From positions 3,713-67,712 of the forward strand of contig CACHRP010000006.1 in the NCBI GenBank assembly GCA_902582315.1: a DNA stretch of 64,000 nt, in the 5' to 3' direction. The position numbers and the translations under genes are program-made. Shown here piece by piece: positions 42,710 to 47,026 of the stretch; within the stretch, counting starts at the first letter, position 1; the number at the start of each line of letters is the position of its first letter. Under the pieces are notes generated by a model. It was not told the origin of the DNA, searched no databases, and saw only the letters and a list, made by a program, of their open reading frames with translations. Source of the DNA: an uncultured Pelagibacteraceae bacterium (GTDB taxonomy: Bacteria > Pseudomonadota > Alphaproteobacteria > Pelagibacterales > Pelagibacteraceae).

Positions 42710-43000
42710 TTAAACCTCTACTTTAGATAATTCCCATAATTGTACATTGTCCACGCATTCAGCATAAATCGCTTTAGCTTTTGGGTTATTTCCAGAAACG
42801 AATTCTTTCATTCCTGCCTCGTTATGAACTGAAACTTTAAATAGAATGCCACTTTTGTCAGGCTTCATTCCTCCAATAGTTTTTTCAGGATAAGCAACAC
42901 TTTTCCTTACCTCCATACCTTCATCAGATTGCATCCATCCCATAAAAGTTTCTAGTTTACCTTCTTTAAGATTAACTAAAGCTAACATTTCTTTTTCCAT
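42710..43000 (-). CDS. Small hypothetical protein
   Basis: 96 aa, 7 Met; SD AAGGGAG. Confidence 0.65.
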   Translation of the reverse strand: MEKEMLALVNLKEGKLETFMGWMQSDEGMEVRKSVAYPEKTIGGMKPDKSGILFKVSVHNEAGMKEFVSGNNPKAKAIYAECVDNVQLWELSKVEV

Positions 43001-43450: not shown

Positions 43451-43735
43451 TTACATTTTTGAAAAGTCCATAACCTGCGAACATTCTTCAGAAGTAGTGT
43501 CAAAAAAATTGTTCATATCTCCTAATTGATCAATAATTGCTTGAGGACTTTCTGCTTGCCATTTACAATACATGTTCATTGAATCACCTGCACACATCAT
43601 GGTCATATGGCATACAGCTTTTTCACCGTTTACTCCCTTTTTTAAATCCTCAGGAGAAGTAGACCCTACAACCTCATGAAATTTCTTCTTCATTTCTTCA
43701 GATTTGAATACGTGTGTTGCTAAATAGTCTTTCAT
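43451..43735 (-). CDS. Small Met/Cys-rich protein, possibly DUF4242-like
   Basis: 94 aa from ATG 43735; YC.WQA.SP.A pattern; 10 Met and 4 Cys. Confidence 0.6.
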   Translation of the reverse strand: MKDYLATHVFKSEEMKKKFHEVVGSTSPEDLKKGVNGEKAVCHMTMMCAGDSMNMYCKWQAESPQAIIDQLGDMNNFFDTTSEECSQVMDFSKM

Positions 43736-43736
43736 A

Positions 43737-43786
43737 ATACATCCTTTCAATATTACATTTAACCTTAATATAATGTTGGAATGTAT
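43737..43786 (-). promoter_or_regulatory. 5'-UTR hairpin sequestering the SD of the 43735 gene
   Basis: Minus strand ATACATTCCAACATTATATT-aaggtta-AATGTAATATTG-aaa-GGATGTAT-T-ATG; 19 of 20 positions pair, including two G-U pairs. Confidence 0.5.
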
Positions 43787-43815: not shown

Positions 43816-44817
43816 TTATATCCAGTTGGGAAAAGGAAGGCCCTTTTCTTGAAGAAATTTTTTATTAAACAGCTTTGAGTTGTATTTATCTGATCGATCA
43901 CAGAGTATTGTTACAATAGTTTTTCCTGGTCCAAGCTTTTTACCCAATCTAATAGCTCCTGCAATATTTACCCCACAACTTGTTCCTAGACTTAAACCTT
44001 CATTCTGAATTAGATCATATAAAATTGGTAGTGATTCTTTATCTTCAATTGAAAAAGCTCCGTCAATTTTAGCCTCTGCAAAATTAGCTGTTACTCTACT
44101 TGAGCCAATACCTTCGGTTATTGAATTTCCTTCTCCTTTAAGTTCTCCATTTTCTATATAATTGTATAAAGAAGATCCAGCGGGATCAGATAAATAAATT
44201 TTTACATCTTTACTTTTTTCTTTTAAATAACTGCTCACACCTGCAATTGTTCCCCCAGTTCCAGAAGCGCAAACAAATGCATCTACCTTTCCATCTGTTT
44301 GATCCCAAATTTCAGGTCCAGTTGTTTCATAATGGCCTTTTGAATTAGCAGTATTATCAAATTGATTTGCCCAAACTACACCATGATTGTTTGAACTTTT
44401 TAACTCATCAGCAAGTCTTCCTGCAACTTTTACGTAATTTCCATCATCTTTATATGGTTTTGGCGGAACAAGTCTTAAATCTGCACCAATATTTTTTAGC
44501 ATATCTTTTTTTTCTTGTGTTTGATTATCGTTCATTACAATTACAGTTTTATAGCCAACTGAATTTCCTATCAAACATAGACCAATACCTGTATTTCCAG
44601 CAGTGCCCTCAACTATGGTTCCACCTTTTGATATTAGTTTTTTTTCTTCTGCGTCTTTAATTAAAGCTAAAGCTGCTCTATCTTTTACTGATCCACCCGG
44701 ATTTAAATATTCAGCTTTTCCGTAAATATTACAGCCAGTAATTTCTGAGGCTGCTTTTAGTTTTACTAATGGAGTGTTTCCAATACCAGAGATAAAGTTA
44801 TTCTGAGTGTTCTTCAT
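43816..44817 (-). CDS. cysK: Cysteine synthase (O-acetylserine thiol-lyase family)
   Basis: [15 protein letters not shown] (PLP Lys), [22 protein letters not shown] motifs. Confidence 0.85.
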
Positions 44818-45382
44818 TTTTTTCTTCGTTACTTATACCATAAGGTTTAAATTCTTCCGTTGCAGTTCCAACATTTTTAGCTGGTATCCCTACCATAACA
44901 CCATTTTCAGGAACATCTTTTGTCACTACGGCGTTAGCTCCAATTTTTGCATTCTTTCCAATGGTTATTGGTCCTAAAACTTGTGCACCTGATCCGACTA
45001 CAACATTATCTTGTAGGGTAGGGTGTCTTTTAATTTCTCTTTGACTATCGGAATTTATACTTGGTGAGATACCACCAAGTGTCGCCATATGATAAATTGT
45101 AACGTTGTCTCCTATATCTGATGTTTCACCTATTACAACTCCCATACCGTGATCAATAAATAAATTTTTTCCAATTTTTGCTTTTGGATGAATTTCAATG
45201 CCAGTCATAAATCTTGAAAACTGTGAAATTATTCTTGCAACCAAATCAAATTTTGCAATTGCAAAAAAATTTGCAATCCTATGCATAAATACAGCCTTCA
45301 CTCCTGGATATGTTAAAATCACTGACAGCTTTGATTTTGCTGCAGGATCTCTTTTTATAATAGATTCTAAAAATTCATTCAT
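44798..45382 (-). CDS. cysE: Serine O-acetyltransferase
   Basis: [39 protein letters not shown] motifs. Confidence 0.95.
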
Positions 45383-45420
45383 AATTCTTTTTATTTTTTA
45401 GGATTAACTAAAAATTACTT

Positions 45421-45534
45421 TTAACAACAGCAACAAGTGTTTTCTGGTTTGCACAAACATTCTTGGCCGTTTTCACAAGCACAAGTGTCATTAGTGCAAT
45501 TGGTACAAATGCATTTTGGATTTTCGCATGCCAT
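45421..45534 (-). CDS. Metallothionein-like Cys-rich peptide, 37 aa, 12 Cys (not in ORF track)
   Basis: MACENPKCICTNCTNDTCACENGQECLCKPENTCCCC*. ATG 45534, TAA 45421-45423; Cys codons are mixed TGT/TGC; same strand as both neighbours. Confidence 0.85.
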   Translation of the reverse strand: MACENPKCICTNCTNDTCACENGQECLCKPENTCCCC

Positions 45535-45587
45535 GATTAAGATATAAATATTAATTGGCTAATTACAATACTTTTATTTACCGCAAA

Positions 45588-46280
45588 TTATAACTGTTCT
45601 AAAGTAAGCCCTTTAACATTAGCGGGGACTGCAACATCCATCATCTTAGGATTTGCTAGTTTTAGATTCTCCATTATCTCAGCATACTCTTCTTTTGAAC
45701 TCACTTGTAATCTTGGGTTATTATTTCTCTCTGTTTCAATCGTTGAAAACTTTTTACCGTTATAATCATGTGCTGGATAAACTAGGGTTTTTTCAGGAAG
45801 TTTTAATAATTTATTAAACAGTGAGTCGTAAGCATCAAATGAGCTGCCATTTTGAAAATCTGTTCTTCCTGTGCCATTTATTAACAAAGTATCTCCAGTA
45901 AAAACTCTATCCTTCATAAAATAACTGTAGGAACAATCCGTATGACCAGGTGTGTACATAGCTTTTAATTCTATGTTCTCAATATTAATTTTTTCGTTAT
46001 CTTTAACTTTAATATCTATAACTTCTGATTTAGAATTTTCTCCCATTATTCGTGTACAGCTAGTTCTTTTATTTAACTCGTTAAGGGCAGTAATATGATC
46101 AGCGTGAATATGTGTATCTATTACTTTAACTAATTTTAATTTTAGCTTTTCCAAAATTTTTAAATATTCATTAGTGTGTTCAATAACTGGATCAATAATT
46201 AATGCCTCTCGCCCTTCACCGCTTGATATAATGTAAGTGTAAGTTGAAGATTTAGTATCAAATAACTGCTCAAAGATCAT
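45588..46280 (-). CDS. ETHE1-like persulfide dioxygenase (metallo-beta-lactamase fold)
   Basis: STYTYI, THIHADHITA, TPGHT, FTGD.LL..G.GRTDFQ, YPAHDY, NPRL motifs. Confidence 0.85.
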   Translation of the reverse strand: MIFEQLFDTKSSTYTYIISSGEGREALIIDPVIEHTNEYLKILEKLKLKLVKVIDTHIHADHITALNELNKRTSCTRIMGENSKSEVIDIKVKDNEKINIENIELKAMYTPGHTDCSYSYFMKDRVFTGDTLLINGTGRTDFQNGSSFDAYDSLFNKLLKLPEKTLVYPAHDYNGKKFSTIETERNNNPRLQVSSKEEYAEIMENLKLANPKMMDVAVPANVKGLTLEQL

Positions 46281-46289
46281 GATTTCCTA

Positions 46290-46331
46290 ATATTATAAAA
46301 AATTGCAAGGCAAATCAATCTTGCATATAAT
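46290..46331. promoter_or_regulatory. Overlapping divergent sigma70 promoters with inverted repeat TGCAAG-N10-CTTGCA
   Basis: Plus strand TTGCAA(46303)-N17-TATAAT(46326); minus strand TTGATT-N17-TAATAT; inverted repeat at 46304-46325. Confidence 0.55.
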
Positions 46332-46363
46332 TTAATTATAAAAACTAATCGAGGGTAATTATT

Positions 46364-47026
46364 ATGACACTTAAAATAAATAGCTTAGCTCCTGATTTTA
46401 AAGCAAAAACTCAAGAAGGCGACATATCGTTTCATGAGTGGCTTGGTGATAGTTGGGGTGTTTTGTTTTCACATCCAAAAGATTTTACACCAGTTTGCAC
46501 AACTGAATTAGGTTCATTAGCAAAAATGAAACCAGAGTTTGACGCAAGAAACGTAAAAGTTTTAGGACTTAGTGTAGATCCAGTTTCTGACCACGTAAAA
46601 TGGTTAGAAGACATTAAAGATGTTTGTGGAATGAAACCAACTTATCCAATCATTGCAGATGAAAAATTGGAAGTGGCAAAACTTTACAATATGTTAGAAG
46701 GTGATGCTGGCGTTACTTCAATGGGAAGAACAGCTGTAGACAATGAAACAGTAAGAACTGTTTATATAATTAGACCGGATAAAAGAATTGGTTTATTTTT
46801 AACATATCCAATGACAACAGGAAGAAACTTTGCAGAAATACTAAGAGCAATAGACTCTATGCAGAGAACTGCTAAACATAAAATAGCTACTCCTGCTGAT
46901 TGGAAACCAGGAGAGGATGTAATTATTGTTCCCAAGGTAACTAACGAGGAAGCAAAGAAAATATATCCTGATGGATGGGAAACCGTAAAACCTTACTTAA
47001 GAAAAGTTCCAGATCCAAATAAATAA
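46364..47026 (+). CDS. 1-Cys peroxiredoxin (Prx6 family)
   Basis: FSHPKDFTPVCTTELG, YPMTTGRNF.E, ATPADW motifs. Confidence 0.93.
   Translation: MTLKINSLAPDFKAKTQEGDISFHEWLGDSWGVLFSHPKDFTPVCTTELGSLAKMKPEFDARNVKVLGLSVDPVSDHVKWLEDIKDVCGMKPTYPIIADEKLEVAKLYNMLEGDAGVTSMGRTAVDNETVRTVYIIRPDKRIGLFLTYPMTTGRNFAEILRAIDSMQRTAKHKIATPADWKPGEDVIIVPKVTNEEAKKIYPDGWETVKPYLRKVPDPNK

What the first reader, a model, noticed from the sequence alone, without database searches (positions are those of the whole stretch)
45421..45534. Unannotated 37-aa, 12-Cys metallothionein-like peptide
Seen: MACENPKCICTNCTNDTCACENGQECLCKPENTCCCC. It is 32 percent Cys in the pattern C-x4-CxC-x2-C-x4-CxC-x5-CxC-x5-CCCC, with no His or aromatic residues and mixed TGT/TGC codons (7/5). 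A TTGTAA-N18-TATCTT element 4 nt before the ATG suggests a near-leaderless mRNA. Established: cyanobacterial SmtA/BmtA use a different Cys/His zinc-finger pattern; CxC-rich, aromatic-free sequences are typical of eukaryotic-style metallothioneins. I do not recognise this as a described SAR11 protein. Twelve Cys could bind about 3-4 divalent or more monovalent ions (inference).
Basis: partly seen in the sequence, partly recalled or inferred. Interest (0 to 1): 0.88.

Follow-up and report, generated by a model that had tools for sequence, protein, structure and literature searches.

The report
Cysteine-rich mini-protein heading SAR11 cysE-cysK operon
A real, conserved and transcribed 37-codon gene in the abundant ocean bacterium SAR11 encodes a peptide that is one-third cysteine, belongs to an unnamed mini-protein family also found in marine phages, and opens the cysteine-synthesis operon, so it is probably a new metallothionein-like metal/thiol binder and may also gauge cysteine supply.

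Summary
The ORF is real. It lies on the minus strand at 45534..45421 and encodes 37 aa with 12 Cys, which is not a chance result (P about 6e-11 per window).

About 220 Pelagibacteraceae loci carry a 36-40 aa homologue:
- 11 Cys columns are at least 99% conserved, with mixed TGT/TGC codons.
- N5, N12 and P30 are conserved.
- The total is always 10-12 Cys.
- Aromatic residues make up 0.6% of non-Cys positions.

The ORF is the first cistron of a leaderless sORF-cysE-cysK mRNA. A conserved promoter (TTGnnn-16-TATATn-6-ATG) precedes it. Metatranscriptome contigs start at the ATG and run into cysE. A persulfide dioxygenase gene lies upstream.

This context raises a rival reading: a Cys-sensing leader peptide like the mycobacterial polycysteine sORFs. 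Four observations argue against a purely regulatory role:
- The same Cys register occurs in small ORFs of marine phages, archaea and actinobacteria that have no cys genes nearby (hhalign 97%).
- The window's clade has no significant RNA switch.
- Modelled ribosome stalls do not expose the cysE start.
- One genome keeps the sORF without cysE-cysK.

No known metallothionein family matches by sequence.

Verdict: most likely a new metallothionein-like mini-protein family co-expressed with cysteine synthesis. Metal binding is untested, and a dual sensor role is not excluded.

The parts
45563..45568 (-). -35-like hexamer TTGTAA of the sORF promoter
   Evidence: TTG at -34..-32 is conserved in 99/88/85% of 74 unique homologous upstream regions. 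The sequence was read.
45541..45546 (-). -10 hexamer TATATC, 16 nt after the -35 element and exactly 6 nt before the ATG
   Evidence: TATAT at -12..-8 is 91-95% conserved at a fixed distance from the ATG. This geometry predicts a transcription start at or next to the A of ATG.
45532..45537 (-). Inferred transcription start: a leaderless mRNA, or a leader of at most 3 nt
   Evidence: In four metatranscriptomes the contigs end at 45525-45534 (one extends 3 nt further) and depth is zero over 45539-45750. The same drop is seen.
45421..45534 (-). sORF of 37 aa with 12 Cys (MACENPKCICTNCTNDTCACENGQECLCKPENTCCCC), stop codon included
   Evidence: Homologues occur in about 220 Pelagibacteraceae loci. 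11 Cys columns are >=99% conserved with mixed codons.
45424..45435 (-). C-terminal CCCC tract (TGT TGC TGT TGT), the SAR11-specific extension that phage and archaeal relatives lack
   Evidence: CCC or CCCC is present in 99% of SAR11 homologues and in none of the 48 viral ORFs.
45383..45420 (-). 38-nt A/T-rich spacer between the sORF stop and the cysE start, with no Shine-Dalgarno motif and no significant structure in this clade
   Evidence: Lack of an SD motif is normal here: 11 of 59 genes have one, against 10% background.
44798..45382 (-). cysE (serine O-acetyltransferase), second cistron
   Evidence: TIGR01172 at 3e-64 and NF041874 at 1e-67. RNA contigs join it to the sORF: X8 covers 45284-45534 and X9 covers 45260-45496.
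43816..44817 (-). cysK (cysteine synthase A), overlapping the cysE end by 20 nt
   Evidence: NF007989 at 1.5e-156.
45588..46280 (-). Upstream neighbour: an ETHE1-type persulfide dioxygenase with MBL fold, on a separate transcript
   Evidence: PDB matches 4ysb at 6e-68, human ETHE1 4chl at 1e-49 and 2gcu at 6e-51. RNA depth is about 0 in runs X2, X5, X8 and X9 where the sORF and cysE are covered.
46364..47026 (+). Divergent 1-Cys peroxiredoxin, conserved as part of the neighbourhood
   Evidence: Pfam AhpC-TSA plus 1-cysPrx_C. It is present in 123 of 133 sORF loci.

Best explanation
The sORF is a bona fide gene for a small, probably metal-thiolate-forming (metallothionein-like) peptide. It belongs to a previously unnamed mini-protein family with the register M-x-C-x-N-x2-C-x-C-x2-C-x4-C-x-C-x5-C-x-C. 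SAR11 members add a C-terminal CCC(C), giving 11 invariant Cys plus one facultative Cys.

In SAR11 it is transcribed from its own conserved promoter as the first, leaderless cistron of an sORF-cysE-cysK mRNA. The cell therefore makes the enzymes that supply cysteine together with a product that is one-third cysteine.

Shown here: the ORF, its conservation pattern, the operon structure, transcription, and the wider family.

Inferred: translation; folding around metal ions (11-12 thiolates would suit about 4 divalent or more monovalent ions); and the physiological role, which would be buffering or storing Zn/Cu/Cd and/or thiols.

The polyCys tail may additionally make translation of this cistron sensitive to Cys-tRNA supply. 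That secondary role is not excluded.
For: 1. Selection acts on the peptide. In 100 unique ORFs, 11 Cys columns are >=99% conserved with TGT/TGC mixed at every one. N5 is 100% conserved (AAT 66, AAC 34), N12 92%, P30 96%, K/H7 98% and D/E16 92%.
2. The Cys total is 11 or 12 (10 in two sequences, never 13). The facultative Cys is at column 15 or column 34, never both.
3. Non-Cys pN/pS is 0.33 in close pairs.
4. Composition is metallothionein-like. Aromatic residues are 0.6% against 10.8% in the window's proteome, aliphatic residues 8.7% against 26.8%, and TGC use is 40% against 23%.
5. The family exists outside any cys context. 48 viral contigs carry ORFs such as MACENEKCKCENCTCDPCECTENNQCSCPKEQTDE with the same register, including C26 and C28, which the search pattern did not require. 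None is next to cysE or the dioxygenase, and they sit in packed phage operons with terminase, portal and RNR genes.
6. hhalign of the SAR11 profile against the phage/archaeal profile gives probability 97.4% and E 1.3e-11. A permutation test restricted to unforced positions gives z 4.8 (1/5000). Without any Cys column it gives z 2.3.
7. The wider family has 119 further unnamed clusters.
8. One SAR11 genome (L111) keeps the promoter and an intact sORF although cysE-cysK are gone from the locus.
9. The gene is expressed. Metatranscriptome contigs cover the sORF at depths similar to cysE in three clades.
10. The only PDB sequence hit of the family profile is a fish metallothionein (1m0j), at a non-significant E of 4.
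Against: - There is no direct evidence of translation or metal binding.
- No recognised metallothionein family matches: Pfam and NCBIfam give nothing, PDB profile searches give only chance-level hits, and the AlphaFold model (best pLDDT 80, the other four 56-67, no secondary structure) has no Foldseek match.
- The link to cysE-cysK is nearly absolute in SAR11 (about 219 of 220 loci). Together with the leaderless start and a terminal CCC(C) run, this is what a Cys-sensing leader peptide would look like.
- Most xCCC clades have a covarying hairpin over the Cys codons and the stop codon. This shows RNA-level selection at the 3' end.
- The L111 exception is a single single-cell genome.
- Homology to the phage ORFs rests partly on a pattern that I imposed.
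- A large SAR11 clade lacks the sORF altogether.
Confidence: 0.55

Rival explanations
1. Pure regulatory leader peptide. The sORF is a cysteine-sensing upstream ORF. When Cys-tRNA is scarce, ribosomes stall on its Cys codons, above all the terminal CCC(C), and this raises expression of cysE-cysK on the same leaderless mRNA. This is the mechanism of the mycobacterial polycysteine leaderless sORFs. Under this reading the peptide itself has no function.
For: - The sORF is always 25-38 nt upstream of cysE-cysK and on the same transcript.
- The start is leaderless.
- There are 3-4 consecutive Cys codons at or near the C-terminus.
- There are published precedents. Ms5788A has 9 Cys, 8 of them consecutive at the C-terminus, on a leaderless mRNA upstream of cysteine genes (bioRxiv 10.1101/834739). 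A predicted Cys-codon uORF with a terminator lies upstream of cysS in Rhodobacterales (PMC8632094).
- In the xCCCNx, SCCC and 36-aa clades a hairpin encloses the Cys codons and the stop. It has z of -1.6 to -2.7 against shuffles and is also more stable than synonymous recodings. In the 39-aa xCCCNx sequences tested for covariation, 90% of cells pair, 7 of 13 pairs change on both sides, and 0/500 shuffles reach this. In some clades a T-run follows it.
Against: - Eight further Cys at fixed positions from codon 3 onward are as conserved as the CCC tract, and so are N5 and P30. A sensor needs only the run. Early Cys codons would stall ribosomes far from any switch.
- The window's own clade (CCCC-stop) and the CCCCN clade have no significant structure. 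WIN folds at -4.1 kcal/mol against -5.0 for shuffles.
- Constrained folding of 45 homologues, with a ribosome parked at each codon in turn, changes predicted accessibility of the cysE start by <=0.02 for stalls at Cys codons, from a baseline of 0.44.
- RNA contigs read through the hairpin.
- Homologues occur in phages and archaea without cys genes.
- L111 keeps the sORF without the operon.
- In strain HTCC1062, cysE and cysK were not induced by sulfur limitation (PMC5069961). I could not establish whether that strain has the sORF.
Confidence: 0.25
2. Thiol or sulfane-sulfur buffer, or cysteine reservoir, rather than a metal binder. The peptide stores reduced sulfur as Cys, persulfide or polysulfide, or scavenges oxidants. 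It would act as part of a sulfide-handling locus made up of the persulfide dioxygenase, the sORF, cysE, cysK and the divergent peroxiredoxin. SAR11 cannot reduce sulfate.
For: - The neighbourhood is conserved, with an ETHE1-type persulfide dioxygenase and a 1-Cys peroxiredoxin.
- The sORF is in an operon with the two cysteine-synthesis enzymes.
- SAR11 depends on exogenous reduced sulfur (PMC5069961).
- The peptide holds about 29 times the proteome-average Cys content.
Against: - The strictly conserved CxC/CxxC spacing and the fixed Cys number fit a defined cluster geometry better than bulk storage.
- Phage homologues occur in unrelated contexts.
- The dioxygenase is not co-transcribed with the sORF in runs X2, X5, X8 and X9.
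- L096 and L108 have a different upstream gene.
Confidence: 0.12
3. Precursor of a modified peptide (a RiPP, such as a ranthipeptide or sactipeptide of the SCIFF type), or a secreted disulfide-rich peptide.
For: The only support is the small size and the many Cys residues.
Against: - No radical SAM, YcaO, lanthipeptide synthetase, protease or transporter gene lies within about 5 kb. The neighbours are a methyltransferase, an Asp/Glu racemase, LysE, a SnoaL-like protein and hisD.
- The peptide has no leader/core architecture and no signal peptide. Conservation starts at residue 1.
Confidence: 0.03

Closest known systems
Metallothioneins in the descriptive sense (for example vertebrate beta/alpha domains; the fish MT of PDB entry 1m0j)
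   Same: - Under 10 kDa and about 30% Cys, arranged as CxC, CxxC and CC(C).
- Virtually no aromatic residues or His, with polar Asn/Lys/Asp/Ser/Thr filler.
- The Cys number is fixed: 9 in the phage forms and 11-12 in SAR11. From my own knowledge, this is the same as the 9-Cys and 11-Cys domains of vertebrate MT.
- Local motifs resemble the fish MT (DPCEC-x5-CxC and CxCxNCxC).
   Different: - There is no significant sequence or fold match to any MT family (E of 4 at best).
- The motif order is permuted relative to fish MT.
- Metal binding is not demonstrated.
- No MT that I know of, or that the literature searches turned up, is encoded as the leaderless first cistron of a cysE-cysK operon.
Bacterial metallothioneins SmtA/BmtA (Pfam PF02069)
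   Same: Both are small bacterial Cys-rich proteins. From memory of the SmtA sequence, which I did not test, the phage and archaeal relatives share a CxC[DE]PCxC motif with the SmtA N-terminus.
   Different: - There is no Pfam PF02069 hit.
- SmtA does not appear in the PDB profile searches at E<=10.
- The SAR11 peptide has no His ligands and no aromatic residues, and it is shorter.
Mycobacterial polycysteine leaderless sORF attenuators (Ms5788A and others; Canestrari et al., bioRxiv 10.1101/834739)
   Same: - It is the leaderless first cistron.
- It has a run of Cys codons at the C-terminus.
- It lies directly upstream of cysteine-metabolism genes on one mRNA.
   Different: - In Ms5788A the Cys codons pair with the Shine-Dalgarno region of the next gene. 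Here no such pairing is predicted, and a modelled stall does not expose the cysE start.
- The SAR11 peptide has eight further invariant, spaced Cys residues and conserved non-Cys residues.
- It has homologues in phages without cys genes.
uORFC-8-2 motif upstream of cysS in Rhodobacterales (Brewer et al. 2021, PMC8632094)
   Same: It is alphaproteobacterial. It is a uORF with tandem Cys codons lying inside a stem, followed by a U-run. This is similar to the hairpin seen in the xCCCNx SAR11 clades.
   Different: - That motif has only two Cys codons in an otherwise unremarkable peptide.
- It has a clear terminator.
- It sits upstream of cysS, not cysE.
- The SAR11 hairpin contains the stop codon itself, is missing in two clades including the window's, and is read through in RNA contigs.

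Membership tests
Metallothionein (descriptive superfamily) | Low molecular mass (<10 kDa) and very high Cys content in CxC/CxxC/CC motifs | tested here: met
   The peptide is 37 aa and 32% Cys. 11 Cys columns are invariant across 100 unique ORFs.
Metallothionein (descriptive superfamily) | Few or no aromatic residues | tested here: met
   The window peptide has none. Across the family, aromatic residues are 0.6% of non-Cys positions, against 10.8% in the window's proteome.
Metallothionein (descriptive superfamily) | Binds metal ions in thiolate clusters with defined stoichiometry | not testable with these tools
   This needs ESI-MS/ICP-MS on expressed or synthetic peptide. The AlphaFold model carries no metals and is only moderately confident.
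Metallothionein (any recognised sequence family, including Pfam PF00131 and PF02069 SmtA/BmtA) | Significant sequence or fold similarity to a recognised MT family | tested here: not met
   Pfam and NCBIfam give no hit at E<=1. The PDB profile searches give LDL-receptor repeats at E of about 1 and fish MT 1m0j at E of 4. Foldseek against the PDB gives 0 hits.
Polycysteine leaderless sORF attenuator (Canestrari et al.) | First cistron of a leaderless polycistronic mRNA | tested here: met
   The spacing TATATn-6 nt-ATG is conserved. RNA contigs end at the ATG and continue into cysE. This rests on assembled contigs, not on 5'-end mapping.
Polycysteine leaderless sORF attenuator (Canestrari et al.) | Two or more consecutive Cys codons, upstream of cysteine-metabolism genes | tested here: met
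   CCC or CCCC is present in 99% of homologues. cysE-cysK follow in about 219 of 220 loci.
Polycysteine leaderless sORF attenuator (Canestrari et al.) | An RNA structure that couples a stall in the Cys tract to expression of the next gene | tested here: not met
   This holds for the window and its clade. The 3' end has no significant structure, and modelled stalls change cysE start accessibility by <=0.02. In other clades a covarying hairpin covers the Cys codons, but it does not pair with the cysE start, so the result there is inconclusive.
Polycysteine leaderless sORF attenuator (Canestrari et al.) | Cysteine-dependent change in downstream expression that requires translation of the sORF | not testable with these tools
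   This needs reporter or proteomic experiments. The only related datum is that cysE and cysK were not induced by sulfur limitation in HTCC1062 (PMC5069961), a strain whose sORF status is unknown.
RiPP precursor (SCIFF/ranthipeptide-like) | An adjacent maturase (radical SAM or similar) and a leader/core architecture | tested here: not met
   No such gene lies within about 5 kb. Conservation runs from residue 1.
Unnamed 'MxCxN-CxC-x2-C' mini-protein family (phage, archaeal, actinobacterial; defined here) | Shared register M-x-C-x-N-x2-C-x-C-x2-C-x4-C-x-C-x5-C-x-C, with similarity beyond the Cys residues | tested here: met
   hhalign gives probability 97.4%. The permutation test on positions not imposed by the search gives z 4.8, and z 2.3 without Cys columns. 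A2, D/E/N4, P6, N12, T/I14 and D16 are shared. Caveat: the relatives were found with a pattern that I imposed.

The most novel reading that the evidence does not exclude
The element is dual-function. An ancient metal-thiolate mini-protein, shared with marine phages and possibly exchanged with them, was placed in SAR11 at the 5' end of a leaderless cysE-cysK mRNA and acquired a polyCys tail. In most xCCC clades it also acquired a hairpin over that tail. As a result, translating the Cys-hungry product itself gauges Cys-tRNA supply and tunes cysteine synthesis. It would be a protein that is at once the main cysteine sink and the sensor for its own precursor, in the ocean's most abundant bacterium, which has very few regulators.
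Probability: 0.2. Interest if true: 0.88.

Novelty: new variant of a known kind. Interest (0 to 1): 0.74.

Why it matters
SAR11 is the most abundant heterotroph in the ocean. It has a minimal regulatory repertoire, cannot reduce sulfate, and keeps its proteome poor in cysteine (1.1% in this window).

A well-transcribed gene whose product is one-third cysteine, hard-wired to the cysteine-synthesis enzymes, would be a significant item in the cell's sulfur budget. If it binds metals, it would also matter for how Zn, Cd and Cu are held in surface-ocean biomass.

The same mini-protein register occurs in many marine phage contigs and in archaea, with no name in any library searched. The finding therefore points to a widespread, unstudied family of 20-50 aa Cys-cluster proteins that gene callers usually miss.

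If the rival reading is right instead, this would be, as far as the literature searched here shows, the first cysteine-sensing leader peptide upstream of cysE-cysK and the first ribosome-mediated attenuator reported in SAR11.

Either outcome is directly testable with a synthetic peptide and simple reporter constructs.

Tried and rejected
1. **Chance ORF.** Rejected on statistics and conservation.

2. **Four-region translational attenuator.** I proposed this from T-run/A-run complementarity in the spacer and cysE codons 3-5. Partition-function folding at 20 C of 45 diverse homologues, with a ribosome footprint parked at every codon, gave no rise in accessibility of the cysE start for stalls at Cys codons: <=0.02 from a baseline of 0.44. 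Only a ribosome at the stop codon gave +0.05. The first two attempts timed out.

3. **Whole-mRNA structure.** For WIN the z-score is 0.11, and most representatives are near 0.

4. **Hairpin as an efficient terminator.** RNA contigs in two hairpin clades run through it into cysE. The scan of the window found no terminator here.

5. **Missing Shine-Dalgarno motif before cysE as evidence for translational coupling.** Rejected. Only 11 of 59 genes in the window have an SD-like motif, against 10% background.

6. **Rfam.** Nothing in 44700-46400 apart from a chance snoRNA hit.

7. **Structure route.** The AlphaFold model has no secondary structure, and Foldseek against the PDB returns nothing.

8. 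**Phage genome collection.** tblastn with a phage homologue, and blastn with 3 kb of a viral contig, found nothing. The low-complexity filter and divergent uncultured phages probably explain this.

9. **PHROGs and Pfam on phage homologues.** No family matched.

10. **Conserved neighbours of the phage homologues.** None is shared across phage groups.

11. **Literature.** No paper links SAR11 or Pelagibacter with a metallothionein or a leader peptide at this locus.

12. **Whether cultured HTCC1062 carries the sORF.** Not determined. The collection scans return at most 80-120 rows and cannot be filtered by strain.

13. **First homology search.** A 37-aa query is below the tool's 40-aa minimum. 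I used an alignment led by a 40-aa homologue instead.
Full report
**Observation.** The ORF exists as described, but on the minus strand (ATG 45534, TAA 45423-45421). It encodes MACENPKCICTNCTNDTCACENGQECLCKPENTCCCC. That is 12 Cys of 37, with 7 TGT and 5 TGC codons and no His or aromatic residues. Proteins in this 28.8% G+C window are 1.1% Cys. With the six-frame Cys frequency of 2.5%, the chance of 12 Cys in 37 residues is 6e-11. Every window with 9 or more Cys in the 64 kb lies on this ORF. Pfam and NCBIfam give no hit.

The gene order on the minus strand is:
- an MBL-fold gene (46280-45588);
- 53 nt;
- the sORF;
- 38 nt;
- cysE (45382-44798);
- cysK (44817-43816), overlapping cysE by 20 nt.

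A 1-Cys peroxiredoxin is divergent at 46364-47026. The MBL-fold protein is an ETHE1-type persulfide dioxygenase: best PDB matches are 4ysb at 6e-68, human ETHE1 4chl at 1e-49 and Arabidopsis 2gcu.

**Conservation in SAR11.** I fetched loci through cysE, through a peptide profile and through a DNA pattern. This gave 235 loci with a homologous 36-40 aa ORF, some of them the same contig fetched more than once. All that resemble the SAR11 form are from Pelagibacteraceae.

Among 100 unique nucleotide versions (86 peptides):
- 11 Cys columns are at least 99% conserved, and each column uses both TGT and TGC.
- N5 is invariant with both Asn codons.
- N12 is 92% conserved, P30 96%, K/H7 98% and D/E16 92%.
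- Total Cys is 11 in 45 sequences, 12 in 53 and 10 in 2, never 13. The twelfth Cys sits at column 15 or column 34, never both.
- Non-Cys positions have pN/pS of 0.33 in close pairs, against 0.03 for cysE in the same genomes.
- Non-Cys positions are 0.6% aromatic, against 10.8% in the window's proteome.

So selection acts on the encoded amino acids, on each Cys individually and on some other residues, while most filler positions drift. This is the pattern known for metallothioneins.

A large clade (cysE about 84% identical) has no sORF. There the dioxygenase gene is followed after about 55 nt by cysE, with TATATA 8 nt before its ATG.

**Operon and transcript.** Where the contig allows, cysE follows the sORF after 25-38 nt in about 219 of 220 loci. 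In 74 unique upstream regions, TTG is fixed at -34..-32 and TATAT at -12..-8. That gives TTGnnn-16 nt-TATATn-6 nt-ATG, a geometry that puts the transcription start on or next to the A of the ATG.

Four ocean metatranscriptomes show this directly. Contigs cover the cysE 5' end, the spacer and the sORF without a break: X8 covers 45284-45534, X9 covers 45260-45496 and X5 covers 45366-45525. They end at 45525-45534, one with 3 extra nt, and depth is zero from 45539 to 45750. The same picture holds for two other clades.

The sORF is therefore the first cistron of a leaderless or nearly leaderless sORF-cysE-cysK mRNA, and in those runs the dioxygenase is not part of it. These are assembled contigs without strand information, so the 5' end is approximate and depths are crude.

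**The leader-peptide rival.** This architecture is what Canestrari et al. describe for mycobacteria. There, leaderless sORFs with consecutive Cys codons precede cysteine genes, and ribosomes stalled in the Cys tract break a duplex that hides the next gene's ribosome-binding site (bioRxiv 10.1101/834739). A Cys-codon uORF with a terminator is also predicted upstream of cysS in Rhodobacterales (PMC8632094). I therefore looked for a switch.

The results were as follows:
- In the 39-aa xCCCNx, SCCC-stop and 36-aa clades there is a real hairpin over the last Cys codons, the C-terminal Asn-x codons and the stop codon. Its z is -1.6 to -2.7 against shuffles, and it is more stable than synonymous recodings. 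In 35 distinct xCCCNx sequences, 90% of cells pair, 7 of 13 pairs change on both sides, and 52 compensated cells are seen against 24 expected (0/500 shuffles reach this). In some clades a T-run follows it.
- The window's own CCCC-stop clade and the CCCCN clade have no significant structure. WIN folds at -4.1 kcal/mol against -5.0 for shuffles.
- RNA contigs read through the hairpin into cysE.
- A partition-function scan placed a ribosome footprint at every codon of 45 homologues. For stalls at Cys codons it changed predicted accessibility of the cysE start by at most 0.02, from a baseline of 0.44.
- Absence of a Shine-Dalgarno motif before cysE is not informative, because only 11 of 59 genes in the window have one.
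- The logic is also poor. Cys codons begin at codon 3, so a starved ribosome would stall far from the 3' end, where it cannot affect any structure there.
- In strain HTCC1062, cysE and cysK were not induced by sulfur limitation (PMC5069961). I could not determine whether that strain has the sORF.

**Evidence that the peptide has a life of its own.** A pattern requiring only M1, C3, N5, C8, C10, C13, C18 and C20 was scanned over the viral collection. It found 48 contigs with small ORFs such as:
- MACENEKCKCENCTCDPCECTENNQCSCPKEQTDE
- MACENEKCKCENCTCDPCLCTEDKQCECAKE
- MPCNNPNCQCENCTCENCTCRE

None of these is next to cysE or the dioxygenase. They sit a few bases from their neighbours in contigs that carry terminase, portal, ribonucleotide reductase and tail genes. 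Their neighbours differ between phage groups.

The genome scan also found:
- a conserved 51-aa archaeal form (L195, L204, L213, L266);
- a 46-aa actinobacterial tandem form (L207);
- the motif fused to the N-terminus of a BlaI/CopY-family repressor (L196; Pfam PF03965 at 1e-14).

These relatives share features the pattern did not impose: C26 and C28 in the same register, C15 as in one SAR11 clade, A2, D/E/N4, P6, N12, T/I14 and D16. Profile-profile comparison gives 97.4% probability and E 1.3e-11 over 32 columns. A permutation test restricted to unforced positions gives z 4.8 (1/5000), and z 2.3 (115/5000) when all Cys columns are left out.

The wider family comprises at least 119 further protein clusters. 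All are unnamed or labelled 'hypothetical' and have no Pfam domain. Some lie on Tara Oceans contigs with phage-like genes. The SAR11 subfamily itself is narrow: 19 representatives at 50% identity among 1.84 billion proteins.

Finally, in L111 (single-cell genome AG-343-N15) the promoter, an intact 11-Cys sORF and its hairpin with TTTT are kept. There cysE, cysK and the next two genes are missing, and the homologue of window gene 42710-43000 follows.

**Comparison with known families.** Descriptively the peptide meets the sequence-level criteria for a metallothionein: size, Cys content and motifs, and lack of aromatic residues. By homology it belongs to none:
- Pfam and NCBIfam give no hit for the SAR11 or phage forms.
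- PHROGs gives no hit.
- The PDB profile search with the SAR11 alignment returns only LDL-receptor repeats at E of about 1.
- The search with the phage/archaeal alignment returns one entry, the fish metallothionein 1m0j, at a non-significant E of 4, through the motifs DPCEC-x5-CxC and CxCxNCxC.
- The AlphaFold model is a coil of moderate confidence without Foldseek matches.
- No RiPP maturase is nearby.

**Conclusion.** The best-supported reading (about 0.55) is a functional, metallothionein-like Cys-cluster mini-protein of a new, unnamed family, which SAR11 expresses together with the two cysteine-synthesis enzymes. A purely regulatory leader peptide (about 0.25) is the main rival. A thiol or sulfane-sulfur buffer (about 0.12) and other roles share the rest. 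A combined role, with the product also acting as a Cys-tRNA gauge through the SAR11-specific polyCys tail and hairpin, is not excluded.

Translation, metal binding and any regulation remain to be shown experimentally.

Noticed in passing
L084:3085-3135, L099:2030-2085 and about 50 other loci (alignment A2); absent at window 45400-45460: A covarying RNA hairpin covers the last Cys codons, the C-terminal Asn-x codons and the stop codon of the sORF. It is present in clades ending xCCC(+0-2 aa). In 35 xCCCNx sequences 90% of cells pair, 7 of 13 pairs are compensated, and 0/500 shuffles reach this. Some clades have a T-run after it. Clades with four consecutive Cys, including the window's, lack it. 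The stop-codon choice (TAG in 52% of sORFs, against 9 of 54 in window genes) follows the pairing. Its function is unknown: it could be a leaky terminator, an mRNA stabiliser or part of an attenuator.
   Followed up: partly
L278-L325 (IMG/VR viral contigs), for example L291:6337-6396(-) and L298:2897-2965(+); also L326-L330: Marine phage contigs carry 21-62 aa ORFs with the same Cys register as the SAR11 peptide (9 Cys, no CCC tail). They have no PHROG or Pfam family and no name. At least 119 protein clusters exist. In L291 the downstream ORF looks, by eye only, like a NifU/Nfu-type Fe-S scaffold protein; this was not checked against Pfam.
   Followed up: partly
L196:1210-1653(-); L207:1054-1194(+); L195, L204, L213, L266: The N-terminal motif MTC[DE]NPxCxCxxCxCxxCxCG is fused to a BlaI/CopY-family (Penicillinase_R) repressor in an Acidimicrobiaceae MAG. 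It occurs as a tandem repeat in a 46-aa actinobacterial ORF. It also heads a conserved 51-aa archaeal protein. This may be a portable metal-sensing module.
   Followed up: partly
L111:2950-3480: One SAR11 single-cell genome keeps the promoter, an intact sORF and the hairpin with TTTT, but lacks cysE, cysK and the two following genes at this locus. The next gene, which has a GAGGGGG Shine-Dalgarno motif, is the homologue of window 42710-43000.
   Followed up: partly
L010, L011, L013, L016-L018, L020, L021 and others (upstream of cysE): A large SAR11 clade has no sORF. There cysE follows the dioxygenase gene after about 55 nt, with ACTATATA 8 nt before its ATG. cysE itself looks nearly leaderless in these genomes. 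Relative to them, the sORF plus spacer reads as an insertion of about 150 nt, or a deletion in this clade, between the promoter and cysE.
   Followed up: partly
window, all 59 long ORFs: Shine-Dalgarno-like 4-mers occur upstream of only 11 of 59 genes, against 10% at random positions. Translation initiation in this genome is mostly SD-independent.
   Followed up: no
window 46303-46331 (+): The best sigma-70-like match in the region (TTGCAA-17-TATAAT, 10 of 12) lies 32 nt upstream of the peroxiredoxin ATG. It overlaps a 7-bp stem-loop (46304-46325).
   Followed up: no
window 43451-43750 (-): A 99-aa ORF just downstream of cysK has 5 Cys and only a weak hit (E 0.013) to the SCO4226-like 'nickel responsive protein' family. 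It is conserved next to cysK in related loci.
   Followed up: no
P0025, P0044, P0045, P0050, P0052, P0054, P0055: Metagenomic variants of the sORF include an internal 9-aa duplication (P0025). Some have frameshifts that turn CCCC into VVVV (P0044, P0050). Others are chimeras or read-throughs into unrelated sequence. These could be sequencing errors, assembly errors or real decay; this was not resolved.
   Followed up: no
window 45386-45472: One metatranscriptome contig (run X4, depth 4) joins 45386 to 45472, skipping 85 nt: the 3' part of the sORF plus the spacer. It could be a strain variant or a mis-join.
   Followed up: no
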